Assembly: GCF_009914755.1 (NCBI RefSeq)
Contig: NC_060933.1
Direction: 5' to 3' (one strand)
DNA length: 64,000 bases
Source: the human T2T-CHM13v2.0 reference genome, Homo sapiens
How positions within the stretch are numbered: position 1 is the stretch's first letter; each line of letters begins with the position of its first letter. The notes under the pieces are model-generated. The model worked only from the letters and a program-made list of their open reading frames with translations, had not been told where the DNA came from and ran no database searches. The translations under genes and the position numbers were made by a program. Shown here piece by piece: positions 12,927 to 41,892 of the stretch.

Positions 12927-15773
12927 TTTTTTTTTTAAATTTATTATTATTATACTTTAAGTTTTAGGGTACATGTGCACAATGTGCAGGTTAGTTACAT
13001 ATGTATACATGTGCCATGCTGGTGCGCTGCACCCACTAACTCATTATCTAGCATTAGGTATATCTCCCAATGCTATCCCTCCCCCCTCCCCCCACCCCAC
13101 AACAGTCCCCAGAGTGTGATGTTCCCCTTCCTGTGTCCATGTGTTCTCATTGTTCAGTTCCCACCTATGAGTGAGAATATGCGGTGTTTGGTTTTTTGTC
13201 CTTGCGATAGTTTACTGAGAATGATGATTTCCAATTTCATCCATGTCCCTACAAAGGACATGAACTCATCATTTTTTATGGCTGCATAGTATTCCATGGT
13301 GTATATGTGCCACATTTTCTTAATCCAGTCTATCATTGTTGGACATTTGGGTTGGTTCCAAGTCTTTGCTATTGTGAATAATGCCGCAATAAACATACAT
13401 GTGCATGTGTCTTTATAGCAGCATGATTTATAGTCCTTTGGGTATATACCCAGTAATGGGATGGCTGGGTCAAATGGTATTTCTAATTCTAGATCCCTGA
13501 GGAATGGCCACACTGACTTCCACAATGGTTGAACTAGTTTACAGTCCCACCAACAGTGTAAAAGTGTTCCTATTTCTCCACATCCTCTCCAGCACCTGTT
13601 GTTTCCTGACTTTTTAATGATTGCCATTCTAAGTGGTGTGAGATGGTATCTCATTGTGGTTTTGATTTGCATTTCTCTGATGGCCAGTGATGGTGAGCAT
13701 TTTTTCATGTGTTTTTTGGCTGCATAAATGTCTTCTTTTGAGAAGTGTCTGTTCATGTCCTTTGCCCACTTTTTGATGGGGTTGTTTGTTTTTTTCTTGT
13801 AAATTTGTTTGAGTTCATTGTAGATTCTGGATATTAGCCCTTTGTCAGATGAGTAGGTTGTGAAAATTTTCTCCCATTTTGTAGGTTGCCTGTTCACTGT
13901 GATGGTAGTTTCTTTTGCTGTGCAGAAGCTCTTTAGTTTAATTAGCTCTCATTTGTCAATTTTGGCTTTGGTTGCCATTGCTTTTGGTGTTTTAGACATG
14001 AAGTCCTTGCCCATGCCTATGTCCTGAATGGTAATGCCTAGGTTTTCTTCTAGGGTTTTTATGCTTTTAGGTCTAACGTTTAGCACCAATCCCACAGAAA
14101 TACAAACTACCATCAGAGAATACTACAAACACCTCTATGCAAATAAACTAGAAAATCTAGAAGAAATGGATAAATTCCTCGACACATACACTCTCCCAAG
14201 ACTAAACCAGGAAGAAGTTGAATCTCTGAATAGACAATAACAGGAGCTGAAATTGTGGCAATAATCAATAGCTTACCAACCAAAAAGAGTCCAGGACCAG
14301 ACAGATTCACAGCCGAATTCTACCAGAGGTACAAGGAGCAACTGGTACCATTCCTTCTGAAACTATTCCAATCAATAGAAAAAGAGGGAATCCTCCCTTA
14401 CTCATTTTATGAGGCCAGCATCATCCTGATACGAAAGCTGGGCAGAGACACAACCAAAAAAGAGAATTTTAGACCAATATCCTTGATGAACATTGATGCA
14501 AAAATCCTCAGTAAAATACTGGCAAACCGAATCCAGCAGCACATCAAAAAGCTTATCCACCATGATCAAGTGGGCTTCATCCCTGGGATGCAAGGCTGGT
14601 TCAATATACGCAAATCAATAAATGTAATCCAGCATATAAACAGAACCAATGACAAAAACCACATGATTATCTCAATAGATGCAGAAAAGGCCTTTGACAA
14701 AATTCAACAACCCTTCATGCTAAAAACTCTCAATAAATTAGGTATTGATGGGACGTATTTCAAAATAATAAGAGCTATCTATGACAAACCCACAGCCAAT
14801 ATCATACTGAATGGGCAAAAACTGGAAGCATTCCCTTTGAAAACTGGCACAAGACAGGGATGCCCTCTCTCACCACTCCTATTCAACATAGTGTTGGAAG
14901 TTCTGGCTAGGGCAATTAAGCAGGAGAAGGAAATAAAGGGTATTCAGTTAGGAAAAGAGGAAGTCAAATTGTCCCTGTTTGCAGACGACATGATTGTATA
15001 TCTAGAAAACCCCATCGTCTCAGCCCGAAATCTCCTTAAGCTGATAAGCAACTTCAGCAAAGTCTCAGGATACAAAATCAATGTACAAAAATCACAAGCA
15101 TTCTTATACACCAACAACACACAAACAGAGAGCCAAATCATGAGTGAACTGCCATTCACAATTGCTTCAAAGAGAATGAAATACCTAGGAATCCAACTTA
15201 CAAGGGATGTGAAGGACCTCTTCAAGGAGAACTGCAAACCACTGCTCAAGGAAATAAAAGAGGATACAAACAAATGGAAGAACATTCCATGCTCATGGGT
15301 AAGAAGAATCAATATCGTGAAAATGGCCATACTGCCCAAGGTAATTTACAGATTCAATGCCATCCCCATCAAGCTACCAATGACTTTCTTCACAGAATTC
15401 GAAAAAACTACTTTAAAGTTCATATGGAACCAAAAAAGAGCCCGCATCGCCAAGTCATCCTAAGCCAAAAGAACAAAGCTGGAGGCATCACACTACCTGA
15501 CTTCAAACTATACTACAAGGCTACAGTAACCAAAACAGCATGATACTGTTACCAAAACAGAGATATAGATCAATGGAACAGAACAGACCCCTCAGAAATA
15601 ACGCCGCATATGTACAACTGTCTGATCTTTGACAAACCTGAGAAAAACAAGCAATGGGGAAAGGATTCCCTATTTAATAAATGGTTCTGGGACAACTGGC
15701 TAGCCATATGTAGAAAGCTGAAACTGGATCCCTTCCTTACACCTTATACAAAAATCAATTCAAGATGGATTAA
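12927..15773 (-). mobile_element. Young L1PA (PA2/PA3-like), 5'-truncated with a twin-priming inversion (L1-A)
   Basis: Poly-T at 12927; antisense 3'UTR/ORF2 to 14081 (ORF 13154..13897 -); sense ORF2 RT segment 14084-15775 (ORF 14255..15463 +, LFADD motif). Perfect 16-bp TSD agaaactggctataaa at 12911-12926 and 15774-15789. Confidence 0.95.
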
Positions 15774-16474
15774 AGAAACTGGCTATAAAATTATTGGACC
15801 AAATTGAATTCTTTCTAAGGCATTTGTATGCTGAAACTTTTTTTGTTTATAGATTTGTAAAATGTGGATTATTTTGCAAATTGAGATTAAAATTATTTGG
15901 GGTTTAGTTACAATTTAAAAAATGCTTTAGCAAAGTAGCATTTAATATTTATTGACGAAATCATTAGAAATGAGCTCCTTTAAAAATTTTTAAAAGTCAA
16001 CTTTTTAGAAGTATAATTTATGCATATTAAACTATATTCATGGATAATAAAGTACATTCAGTCTAGGAGTACATTTTGATGAGTTTTGACAAATTTGTAT
16101 ACCTGTGTAACTACTACCACAGTCAATGTATGAAACATTTCTATCACTTTGGAGCATTTCCTTGTACCTTACTCTAGTAAATCCCAGCCACTACCCATAG
16201 CCCCAGTATACCATTTATCCACTTTATATCACTACAGATTAGTGTTTTCTGTAGTTTCATATGGAGTCATATAGTATGTACTCATTTTGTTTTTGAGATT
16301 TATCCATGTAATTACATATTCCTGAGTAGTATTAGGTACCACAATTTGTTTTTCCAGTTATCTGTTGATGGGTTTTGGTGTATTTCCAGCTTTTGATTAT
16401 TTGAATAAGGTTGTTATAAATAAAGCTGCTATGAATATGTGTACATATATGTCTGTACACAGACACATATTTTC

Positions 16475-41700: not shown

Positions 41701-41892
41701 TGAGGTGATGCCTCGCCCTGCTTCGGCTCACACTCGGTGGGCTGCACCTACTGTCCTGCCCCCACTGTCCAACGAGCCCCAGTGAGATTAACCCAGTACC
41801 TCAGTTGGAAATGCAGAAATCACCCGTTTTCTGCATCACTCATGCTGGGAGCTGTAGACTGGAGCTGTTCCTATTCGGCCATCTTGGAACCC
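35751..41892 (-). mobile_element. Full-length L1PA4-6-like element, multiply disrupted (L1-C)
   Basis: 5' end GGGTTCCAAGATGGCCGAATAGGAAC. Long-type 5'UTR with an extra segment at about 41000-41130. ORF1 remnant 40502-39858, fragmented ORF2 and a poly-T tail. Confidence 0.95.

What the first reader, a model, noticed from the sequence alone, without database searches (positions are those of the whole stretch)
12927..41892. Three neighbouring L1PA copies share non-consensus mutations in a mosaic pattern
Seen: L1-B (27711-33757) and L1-C (35751-41892) have different 5'UTR types, so they belong to different subfamilies, yet they share changes spread over more than 4 kb. These are ORF1 REKRRVT (about 32140 / 40160), ORF1 ALNVERNN (31885 / 39905), ORF2 YKINIQK (29570 / 37580) and MFTAA (28180 / 36195). 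All three copies share TEFEKTT (15398 / 29253 / 37262) and the silent CAGTTA (14945 / 29706 / 37716). L1-A lacks INIQ and FTAA. From recalled L1PA consensus these sites read REKGRVT, NMERNN, INVQK, MFIAA and TELEKTT. Inference: a patchwork that no single tree explains suggests repeated short-tract gene conversion among L1s 8-20 kb apart, i.e. local concerted evolution.
Basis: partly seen in the sequence, partly recalled or inferred. Interest (0 to 1): 0.8.

Follow-up and report, generated by a model that had tools for sequence, protein, structure and literature searches.

The report
Neighbouring L1 repeats swapped sequence patches
Three separately inserted L1 repeats lying within 30 kb on human chromosome 9 carry patches and single bases copied between one another, a concrete case of DNA exchange between neighbouring repeats that blurs their use as independent molecular clocks.

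Summary
They are not subfamily markers. Exact genome-wide word counts give REKRRVT 17 of 3941, the INIQ 'CA' form 8 of 4596, and TEFEKTT 27 against 7464. B and C are among the carriers each time. NVERNN, MFTAA and CAGTTA are minority forms at about 5-7%.

C differs from its own closest relatives at these sites and equals B.

The strongest evidence is new. L1-A is a twin-primed, truncated insertion with a 15-bp target-site duplication. It is string-identical to L1-B in two tracts of 396 and 384 bp. Elsewhere the two are no closer than unrelated copies of the same subfamily. No other genomic copy matches these tracts.

Best reading: non-allelic gene conversion among neighbouring L1s. A-B exchange is recent. 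B-C exchange is older, in short patches. Confidence 0.8.

Caveats:
- B and C still differ by 8%.
- Only one assembly was available, with no ape orthologues.

Rare L1 variants also cluster spatially elsewhere in the genome.

The parts
12912..12926 (+). Target-site duplication of L1-A, left copy
   Evidence: 15-mer found twice in the window, 0 expected by chance
12927..14082 (-). L1-A 3' arm (end of ORF2, 3'UTR, poly-A), direct orientation relative to B
   Evidence: BLAST to B, 96.3% over 1157 bp. No conversion tract seen here: 20 differences in 868 compared columns, like the B-to-relative mean of 25.0
14084..15774 (+). L1-A inverted 5' arm (twin-priming inversion). It continues the L1 coordinate of the 3' arm without gap or overlap
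   Evidence: BLAST to B, 98.3% over 1694 bp; B positions 3328-5021 abut 5024-6175
15775..15789 (+). Target-site duplication of L1-A, right copy
14512..14907 (+). A-B conversion tract 1, A side. 396 bp string-identical to B 29749-30144. Extends to 15015 (504 bp) with one mismatch at 14908
   Evidence: Identity check. 23 relatives differ from B here by 4-13 sites. Genome search: A has 1 mismatch over 504 bp; the next best copies are 99%
15235..15618 (+). A-B conversion tract 2, A side. 384 bp string-identical to B 29038-29421. Holds six A=B states absent or nearly absent from 27-29 relatives, including the TEFEKTT TTC
   Evidence: Genome search: only A is 100%; the next best is 98%
27711..33757 (-). 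L1-B, full length (6047 bp), younger type. Open frames are broken (ATG-started pieces of 248, 517, 325 and 365 aa)
   Evidence: (97-98% to many full-length copies)
29749..30144 (-). A-B conversion tract 1, B side
29038..29421 (-). A-B conversion tract 2, B side
35751..41892 (-). L1-C, full length (6142 bp), older type and heavily mutated. Inserted into an older L1 fragment
   Evidence: (closest genomic relatives only 93-95%)
32140..32202 (-). B-C identical run (63 bp) holding the REKRRVT CGT at B 32144 / C 40163
   Evidence: Run length. CGT word: 17 of 3941 genome-wide. B relatives G in 10 of 10; C relatives G in 6, C in 1
31874..31895 (-). B-C identical run (22 bp) holding the NVERNN GTG at B 31889 / C 39908
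   Evidence: B relatives A in 10 of 10; C relatives A in 14 of 14
31455..31792 (-). Patchwork zone (C 39474-39811). B and C agree at six subfamily-diagnostic sites that alternate between the young state (31792, 31725, 31605) and the older state (31718, 31690, 31455)
29684..29726 (-). B-C identical run (43 bp) holding the CAGTTA G at B 29709 / C 37718 / A about 14947
   Evidence: 29 of 29 B relatives have A. 334 genome hits
29542..29644 (-). B-C identical run (103 bp) holding the INIQ site. At B 29574, 29573 and 29571 (C 37583-37580), C equals B and differs from its sister L054 at all three and from most of 8 relatives
   Evidence: The 'CA' word occurs 8 times in the genome, two of them B and C
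29227..29306 (-). B-C identical run (80 bp) holding the TEFEKTT TTC at B 29256 / C 37265 / A about 15400
28177..28192 (-). B-C identical run (16 bp) holding the MFTAA ACT at B 28184 / C 36198
   Evidence: B relatives T in 25 of 25. A first C-like panel has C in 8, T in 3
38857..39070 (-). Stretch of L1-C (coordinates worked out by hand from a B-to-C offset of 8017) with the young-type state at three consecutive diagnostic sites (B 31053, 30903, 30840). Its sister L054 keeps the older state

Best explanation
Three independent L1PA insertions have exchanged sequence after insertion by non-allelic (ectopic) gene conversion. A is a twin-primed, 5'-truncated copy. B and C are full-length copies of a younger and an older subfamily. 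In this process a break in one copy is repaired from a nearby, similar copy, which overwrites a patch without changing copy number or flanks.

Shown:
1. A recent A-B exchange in two tracts of 396 and 384 bp, between B and the arm of A that lies inverted to it, 13 kb away.
2. Sharing between B and C of single bases that are rare in the genome, at sites where C departs from its own relatives.
3. Patches in which C carries young-type states and B carries older-type states.

Inferred:
1. The B-C exchanges are several older short-tract events, each bounded at 16-103 bp. Alternatively they are a few long heteroduplexes repaired in patches.
2. B was probably the donor to A. Direction is not shown.
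3. The A-B event is younger than about 1.6-3.8 million years. This assumes 1.2e-9 to 0.5e-9 substitutions per site per year.
For: Independent insertions:
- A has its own 15-bp target-site duplication and a twin-priming structure.
- B and C differ in length and flanks and at 96 panel-diagnostic sites.

A-B mosaic:
- There are 0 differences in 396 bp and 0 in 384 bp. B differs from 23 and 27 relatives there by means of 8.9 (minimum 4) and 15.0 (minimum 8). No relative pair is identical (0 of 253, 0 of 351).
- In the four other segments A-B differences are 12, 10, 6 and 20. The B-to-relative means there are 13.1, 8.6, 5.6 and 25.0.
- The tracts are exact string matches. With the outside rate of 3.3%, P(0 differences in 780 bp) is about 5e-12. 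None of 20000 uniform simulations gave two such runs.
- 9 of 11 A=B states that are rare in the panel lie in or beside the tracts.
- Genome-wide, only A matches B in these tracts. A is not among the 40 best matches for B 29500-29700, which lies between the tracts.

B-C sharing:
- Rare shared words: 17 of 3941, 8 of 4596, and 27 against 7464.
- C equals B and differs from its relatives at B 32144, 31889, 29574/3/1 and 29256.
- C has young states at 6 of 29 and 4 of 67 diagnostic sites. Its sister L054 has none in the 26 of the 29 it covers. B has older states at 1 of 29 and 9 of 67.
- Control pairs rarely reach the B-C counts.
Against: - The B-C shared bases sit in short identical runs of 16-103 bp. 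Apart from the three INIQ positions, no flanking marker was co-transferred. Tracts would have to be very short, or repair patchy. Single-site sharing is also what recurrent mutation gives.
- Unrelated pairs show some 'both depart' sites: means 0.39 and 0.79, and 1 of 70 and 4 of 126 pairs reach the B-C counts.
- In a stricter rare-allele count B-C share only 2 sites. 17 of 528 unrelated pairs reach 2.
- Three of the six variants are 5-7% forms.
- Some 'wrong-type' diagnostic states in B or C could mark intermediate sub-subfamilies rather than exchange.
- B and C remain 8% apart, and no long B-C tract is seen. The run-length test is confounded by rate differences along the element.
- TTC is also carried by two L1s 190-270 kb away that share little else.
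- Everything rests on one assembly. No outgroup, haplotype or read-level check was possible, and direction is unknown.
Confidence: 0.8

Rival explanations
1. Ordinary explanation. The shared states are ancestral or subfamily-diagnostic L1PA states that only look odd against a recalled young consensus. The pattern then follows the single ladder-like L1 lineage C -> B -> A -> L1HS.
For:
- 25 of 28 BC|A sites are simply A-private, and 16 of 19 AC|B sites are B-private.
- NVERNN, MFTAA and CAGTTA are carried by hundreds of copies.
- MFTAA's C is the majority in a first C-like panel, 8 of 11.
Against: - REKRRVT, INIQ-CA and TEFEKTT words are carried by 17 of 3941, 8 of 4596, and 27 against 7464 copies.
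- None of 10 (5' half) or 29 (3' part) B relatives, and almost none of C's relatives, carry them. At the INIQ T-to-C site, 4 of 29 B relatives do.
- This reading cannot explain the A-B identical tracts.
Confidence: 0.04
2. Parallel (recurrent) point mutation at mutable sites, perhaps raised by a regional mutational process, produced the same bases independently in B, C and other nearby L1s. No DNA was exchanged.
For: - Most B-C sharing is single-site, with unconverted markers 5-50 bp away.
- Four of the six changes create a CpG: AAACGT, AACGTG, AAC-G/ATA by way of a CG form, and TTCGAA.
- The genome-wide frequencies of the rare forms (0.2-0.4%) are about what independent mutation gives.
- Unrelated pairs show a background of such coincidences.
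Against: - Three independent coincidences at 0.17-0.43% each in one pair of neighbours are wildly improbable.
- C changed three bases within 4 bp to B's exact state.
- Runs of swapped diagnostic states exist.
- The 19 B-private changes include no C<>G change, so there is no sign of a local G>C flood in B.
- This reading cannot make 780 bp of A and B identical.
Confidence: 0.1
3. Shared descent by retrotransposition. A is a daughter (or sister) of B, and nearby copies are daughters of C. The shared rare variants would then be source-lineage variants, with progeny landing near the source.
For: - B and C are full length, and the partners (A, and L054 just upstream of the window) are 5'-truncated.
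- A and B share 9 rare alleles and C and L054 share 15. The unrelated-pair mean is 0.23.
- One C/L054 word occurs only in these two copies in the whole genome.
Against: - Descent predicts even sharing along the copy, including the 3' end where reverse transcription starts.
- A-B sharing is confined to two tracts. Outside them the pair is as diverged as unrelated copies.
- The tracts show no differences, although A and B each carry about 1% private changes elsewhere.
- C/L054 sharing is absent from the last 490 bp (0 of 20 C-rare sites) and the first 400 bp (0 of 9).
- B and C belong to different subfamilies.
Confidence: 0.03
4. Assembly or polishing artefact. Sequence from one L1 was written into a neighbouring L1 in this assembly.
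For: Only one assembly was examined. Repeats are where consensus errors concentrate.
Against: - The copies are 92-97% identical and embedded in unique flanks, so long reads should separate them (reasoned, not tested).
- Clean 396- and 384-bp patches with sharp edges are not a typical polishing error.
- The same kind of rare-variant sharing is seen between L1s tens to hundreds of kb apart in other regions.
Confidence: 0.03

Closest known systems
Non-allelic gene conversion between neighbouring Alu elements
   Same: Dispersed retrotransposon copies that inserted independently later exchange short patches. Proximity matters. A review reports raised rates between Alu copies less than 10 kb apart, dependence on distance and identity, and replacement of an old Alu by a young subfamily sequence. 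I read passages of PMC6598467, which cites Aleshin and Zhi 2010 and Kass et al. 1995; I did not read those two papers.
   Different: Here the elements are 6-kb L1s, not 300-bp Alus. Tracts cover only parts of the element. One partner arm is inverted. Two subfamilies are involved. In the passages I read, that review gives no L1 example of exchange between neighbours.
Interlocus gene conversion in segmental duplications and duplicated genes
   Same: Mosaic identity, transfer of paralogue-specific variants, and dependence on distance and identity (general knowledge; PMC6598467 passages).
   Different: Those paralogues arose by DNA duplication and start out identical. Here the partners are separate retrotransposition events that started 3-8% apart, so exchange has to work within short identical runs. 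The longest B-C runs are 139 and 133 bp.
Reported L1 gene conversion at individual loci, and repair of a break in a LINE from other LINEs in mouse cells
   Same: Older L1s partly overwritten by younger L1 sequence; break repair templated by other L1 copies. This is recalled from memory (work of Myers et al. 2002, Vincent et al. 2003, Tremblay et al. 2000).
   Different: Those reports, as I recall them, do not describe a local network of several neighbours with events of different ages, nor genome-wide clustering of rare L1 variants.
L1 twin-priming inversion (structure of L1-A only)
   Same: Two arms in opposite orientation, contiguous in L1 coordinates, with a poly-A end and flanked by a target-site duplication.
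   Different: Nothing unusual. It matters only because the converted arm lies inverted relative to B.

Membership tests
Non-allelic (interlocus) gene conversion | Partners are distinct loci, not alleles or one duplicated segment | tested here: met
   A has its own 15-bp target-site duplication, truncation and inversion. B and C have different flanks, lengths and subfamily states.
Non-allelic (interlocus) gene conversion | Mosaic: tracts of much higher identity bounded by background divergence | tested here: met
   A-B: 0 differences in 396 and 384 bp, against 3.3% outside. For B-C only short runs and swapped diagnostic states were seen, with no long tract.
Non-allelic (interlocus) gene conversion | Donor-private variants appear in the recipient (shared variants absent from each copy's relatives) | tested here: met
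   A-B share 9 rare alleles; the unrelated-pair mean is 0.23 and only 1 of 528 pairs reaches 8. The B-C shared words are rare genome-wide.
Non-allelic (interlocus) gene conversion | Non-reciprocal transfer, with donor and recipient identified through orthologues or haplotypes | not testable with these tools
   No ape genomes or other human assemblies were available. Direction was only guessed from the density of private variants.
Non-allelic (interlocus) gene conversion | Flanks and copy number unchanged | tested here: met
   The elements keep their own ends, poly-A tails and flanks.
Subfamily-diagnostic L1PA variants | The variant is carried by most copies of a named subfamily | tested here: not met
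   17 of 3941, 8 of 4596, and 27 against 7464. The other three forms are at about 5-7%. Dfam consensuses were not available, so subfamily names (L1PA2/3-like for A and B, older for C) are my estimate.
Concerted evolution (homogenised repeat array) | Local copies are more alike overall than copies elsewhere | tested here: not met
   Outside the tracts A-B equals the B-to-relative distance. B-C are 91.9% identical. C is 93-95% identical to the best copies found elsewhere.
Twin-priming L1 inversion (L1-A) | Inverted 5' arm contiguous with the 3' arm, target-site duplication, poly-A | tested here: met

The most novel reading that the evidence does not exclude
Exchange between neighbouring L1s is not a local oddity but pervasive. 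Across the human genome, short-tract non-allelic gene conversion would move single rare bases between otherwise unrelated L1PA copies up to several hundred kb apart. Rare L1 alleles would then be spatially clustered, and roughly a tenth of the subfamily-diagnostic sites in a copy could derive from neighbours. Possibly there is a bias toward CpG-creating or C<>G alleles that escape mismatch repair. If so, L1 ages and subfamily calls based on independent decay are systematically off, and complete assemblies give a direct genome-wide map of ectopic repair.
Probability: 0.4. Interest if true: 0.75.

Novelty: new member of a known kind. Interest (0 to 1): 0.6.

Why it matters
L1 copies are widely treated as independent neutral clocks. 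Age comes from divergence, and subfamily comes from diagnostic sites. Here, about 10 of 96 diagnostic sites in each of two neighbours carry the other's state, and 780 bp of a several-million-year-old copy were overwritten within roughly the last 1.6-3.8 million years. That shows concretely how ectopic repair breaks the independence assumption.

The recent A-B event lies between inverted partners 13 kb apart, just downstream of TMEM38B. A crossover there would invert the intervening segment, so the site is a natural candidate for structural or conversion polymorphism in people.

The spatial clustering of rare L1 alleles seen in passing suggests a simple genome-wide assay for the rate, range and bias of non-allelic gene conversion in complete assemblies.

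Tried and rejected
- Run-length test for B-C and A-C. B-C has identical runs of 139 and 133 bp (P 0.0065 under uniform placement). A-C has runs in the same places and the 5'UTR evolves faster, so the test is confounded. I do not use it.
- First panel of 'C relatives' (L031-L042, picked by a 301-bp match). These proved poor relatives, only 92-94% identical and mostly of the young type. I replaced them with panels picked on C-specific regions.
I used smaller fetches instead.
Of the 14 further TTC copies fetched, the anchor search read the CAGTTA site in 4, all A. Of the 10 cluster copies fetched, only L043 has G.
- Segmental duplication as the cause of TTC clusters is rejected for the 10 copies fetched. 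The eight whose 3' ends were captured have different 3' flanks (the stretches for L050 and L051 run out of the L1), and those eight differ pairwise by 4.6-6.7%.
- DNA-level duplication of C as the origin of L054 is rejected. L054 has a unique 5' flank and its own poly-A and 3' flank.
- Two scripts hit the time limit and were rerun in lighter form. The shared-rare count for the control pairs was therefore not done.
- Not done: GENECONV or RDP, Dfam consensuses, ape orthologues, pangenome haplotypes.
- Literature. Three full-text searches (two further attempts failed on term length). I read passages of PMC6598467 and one passage of PMC13192797. In those listings I found no paper describing sequence exchange between neighbouring human L1s. 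This is not proof that none exists.
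Full report
**What is there**

The window holds three L1PA copies.

L1-A is one insertion in two arms. The 3' arm is 12927-14082 on the minus strand. The 5' arm is 14084-15774 on the plus strand. In L1 coordinates the arms abut: B positions 3328-5021 and 5024-6175. A 15-bp direct repeat flanks the whole element at 12912-12926 and 15775-15789, with 2 matches in the window and 0 expected. 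This is a twin-priming inversion of a 5'-truncated copy.

L1-B (27711-33757, minus strand) and L1-C (35751-41892, minus strand) are full length. Both are dead. The longest ATG-started frames in B are 248, 517, 325 and 365 aa, and those in C are shorter.

B is 97-98% identical to many full-length copies elsewhere. C's best matches elsewhere are only 93-96%. B and C are 91.9% identical over 5995 columns. Their 5'UTRs align at 83.8% with a 135-bp length difference. Subfamily names could not be assigned, because no Dfam consensus was at hand. From divergence I take A and B to be L1PA2/3-like and C to be older. This is my estimate.

**The observation**

With three sequences, every variable site is just a private branch. 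In the 2.86 kb that A covers, the counts are AB|C 148, BC|A 33, AC|B 31, and one site with three states. With 29 B-like copies as reference, 25 of 28 BC|A sites are A-private and 16 of 19 AC|B sites are B-private. So 'no single tree' does not follow from them.

**Are the shared variants common elsewhere?**

They are not subfamily markers. Exact whole-genome counts:
- REKRRVT (CGT): 17 of 3941. The first 100 listed all read GGT.
- INIQ: of 4596 words allowing Y and R at the two variable positions, 72 have C at the first, made up of 64 CG and 8 CA. B and C are two of the eight CA.
- TEFEKTT (TTC): 27 hits for the 37-mer, against 7464 for a 35-mer with either base. The first 100 listed all read TTG.
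- NVERNN (GTG): 5 of the first 100 of 4154.
- MFTAA (ACT): 6 of the first 100 of 7626.
- CAGTTA: 334 hits. The denominator was not measured.

So three variants are rare (0.17-0.43%) and three are minority forms at about 5-7%.

**C against its own relatives**

I used two panels chosen on C-specific regions (L055-L062 and L088-L095). I also used L054, an L1 just upstream of the window that shares many of C's private variants. These show that C departs from its own kind exactly where it equals B:
- NVERNN: A in 14 of 14 relatives.
- REKRRVT: G in 6 relatives and C in 1.
- TEFEKTT: G in all 8 relatives and in L054.
- INIQ: three positions within 4 bp (B 29574, 29573, 29571) where L054 and most of the 8 relatives read otherwise.

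B likewise departs from its 10 or 29 relatives at these sites.

I then took 96 sites that separate the two panels at 70% or more in each.
- C carries the young state at 10. These include three consecutive sites (B 31053-30840) where L054 keeps the older state.
- B carries the older state at 10. These include runs at 33643-33617 and 31718-31690.
- Between B 31792 and 31455, B and C agree at six diagnostic sites of alternating type.

Some of these could mark intermediate sub-subfamilies rather than exchange.

A control with unrelated young x older pairs gives means of 0.39 and 0.79 'both depart' sites. One of 70 pairs reaches B-C's 4, and 4 of 126 reach B-C's 3. In a stricter rare-allele count over 1.95 kb, B-C share 2 sites. 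17 of 528 unrelated pairs reach 2.

**The strongest evidence: A and B**

I cut the alignment at the A-B differences.
- A and B have 0 differences in B 30144-29749 (396 bp) and 0 in B 29421-29038 (384 bp).
- B differs from 23 and 27 relatives there by means of 8.9 (minimum 4) and 15.0 (minimum 8).
- No relative pair is identical in either tract (0 of 253, 0 of 351).
- In the other four segments A-B differences are 12, 10, 6 and 20, against B-to-relative means of 13.1, 8.6, 5.6 and 25.0.

The tracts are exact string matches. Tract 1 extends to 504 bp with one mismatch. Given the outside rate of 3.3%, zero differences in 780 bp has P of about 5e-12. None of 20000 uniform simulations gave two such runs.

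Genome-wide, only A matches B fully in tract 2; the next best copy is 98%. In extended tract 1, A has one mismatch and the next best copies are 99%. For B 29500-29700, between the tracts, A is not among the 40 best matches.

The converted arm of A lies inverted to B, 13 kb away. No differences in 780 bp bounds the event at about 1.6-3.8 million years, assuming 1.2e-9 to 0.5e-9 substitutions per site per year. A and B each carry about 1% private changes elsewhere.

**Mechanism**

The pattern fits non-allelic gene conversion. A break in one L1 is repaired from a nearby L1, and a patch is overwritten. The A-B event is recent and clean.

The B-C exchanges must be older. B and C have since diverged around them. 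They must also be short, because the identical runs holding the shared bases are 63, 22, 43, 103, 80 and 16 bp. Several short events, or a few long heteroduplexes repaired in patches, would both fit. I cannot tell which. Donor and recipient are not shown. B as donor to A is a guess.

**Rivals**

1. Subfamily or ancestral states. Refuted for three sites by the word counts. It also cannot explain the A-B tracts.
2. Parallel mutation. Favoured by the single-site character and by four of the six changes creating a CpG. But three coincidences at 0.2-0.4% in one neighbouring pair, a triple change in 4 bp, and the tracts all speak against it.
3. Descent (A from B). Refuted by the mosaic.
4. Assembly artefact. 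Unlikely on reasoning, but untested.

**Seen in passing, bearing on generality**

*C and L054.* L054 lies at chr9:117920139-117923597, just upstream of the window. It is a 5'-truncated copy with its own flanks and poly-A.
- In the part of L054 first examined, C and L054 share 19 variants that are rare in the panels. C-private variants number 51 and L054-private 54.
- One shared word occurs only in these two copies genome-wide.
- The sharing is confined to C 38680-36242. It is absent from the first 400 bp (0 of 9 C-rare sites) and from the last 490 bp (0 of 20).
- A daughter copy must carry its parent's 3' end, so this also looks like an old, long conversion rather than descent.

*TTC carriers cluster.* 13 of the 27 TTC carriers lie in four clusters: chr9 117.67-117.96 Mb, chr4, chr5 and chr7.
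- The ten cluster copies outside the window were fetched. For the eight whose 3' ends were captured, the 3' flanks differ and pairwise distances are 4.6-6.7%. The stretches for L050 and L051 run out of the L1.
- The members are of mixed subfamily type.
- They share no flanking marker.

*Control site.* At an arbitrarily chosen control site next to the TTC base there are 73 non-G copies. About 11 same-allele pairs lie within 500 kb, against roughly 0.7 expected. I computed that expectation by hand from the neighbour density, scaled to 7464 copies. Nine such neighbour pairs are 92.1-97.1% identical. That is like 96 non-neighbour pairs of the same set, which average 94.7% and range from 90.8 to 97.7%. 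Old segmental duplications are not excluded for those pairs.

*INIQ.* There are three further close pairs (under 60 kb) against 0.17 expected.

Rare L1 alleles are thus spatially clustered well beyond this window.

**Comparison with what is known**

Non-allelic gene conversion between dispersed repeats is established for Alu, with raised rates below 10 kb (passages of PMC6598467). I recall single-locus reports for L1 but did not read them here. My three searches listed no paper on exchange between neighbouring human L1s. So this is a new, well-resolved member of a known kind. The genome-wide clustering is the part that could be new.

**Verdict**

- Observation: confirmed.
- Interpretation: supported, with the caveats above.
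- Confidence in gene conversion as the cause: 0.8.
- Interest: 0.6.

Noticed in passing
outside the window, chr9:117918700-117923597 (loci L054, L096), about 0.4-5.3 kb upstream of window base 1; partner L1-C 36242-38680: A 5'-truncated L1 with its own flanks and poly-A shares 19 panel-rare variants with L1-C in the part first examined, and 4 more toward the 3' end. One shared 36-mer occurs only in these two copies genome-wide. Sharing is confined to C 38680-36242 and is absent from both ends (0 of 9 and 0 of 20 C-rare sites). That fits an old conversion of about 2.4 kb rather than descent.
   Followed up: partly
L043-L052, L063-L076 (genome places listed): The rare TTC (TEFEKTT) word has 27 genome hits. 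13 of them lie in four clusters: chr9 117.67-117.96 Mb (5, including A, B and C), chr4 146.5-147.0 Mb (3), chr5 41.5-41.8 Mb (2) and chr7 91.9-92.7 Mb (3). Of the ten members fetched outside the window, the eight with captured 3' ends have different flanks. They are of mixed subfamily type and have no co-shared flanking marker. L043, 258 kb from the window, also carries the CAGTTA G.
   Followed up: partly
L097-L111 (genome places listed): At an arbitrary control site beside the TTC base, copies with the same rare base also cluster: about 11 same-allele pairs within 500 kb against roughly 0.7 expected (hand estimate). Nine neighbour pairs fetched are 92.1-97.1% identical, like non-neighbour pairs of the same set, so they are not recent duplicates. 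Their flanks were not checked.
   Followed up: partly
L014 and L015 (chr9:32.73 and 32.75 Mb, 18.6 kb apart): Among 528 supposedly unrelated pairs in the null panel, the single outlier with 8 shared rare alleles is another pair of neighbouring L1s. They differ by 2.0%, spread evenly over 3.2 kb.
   Followed up: partly
window 28000-30573 (B) and 12926-15776 (A): C<>G transversions make up 4 of the 11 A=B shared rare states (B 30223, 29256, 29068, 29044). They also include the A=C shared state at B 29505 and the REKRRVT change. None of B's 19 private changes is of this class. The cause is unknown.
   Followed up: no
window 32776-34077 vs L1-B 5'UTR (about 32850-33757): The two RefSeq 'enhancer' features given in the hub's table overlap the 5'UTR of L1-B. 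B lacks about 135 bp that C has near the end of the 5'UTR (C 41000-41134).
   Followed up: no
window 41897-43532: L1-C sits inside an older, 78-86% similar L1 fragment. Its 5' flank reads as L1 ORF2 sequence.
   Followed up: no
window 3794-5958, 7928-8236, 17395-17759: Further older L1 fragments, 75-85% identical to B. They were not part of the exchange analysis.
   Followed up: no
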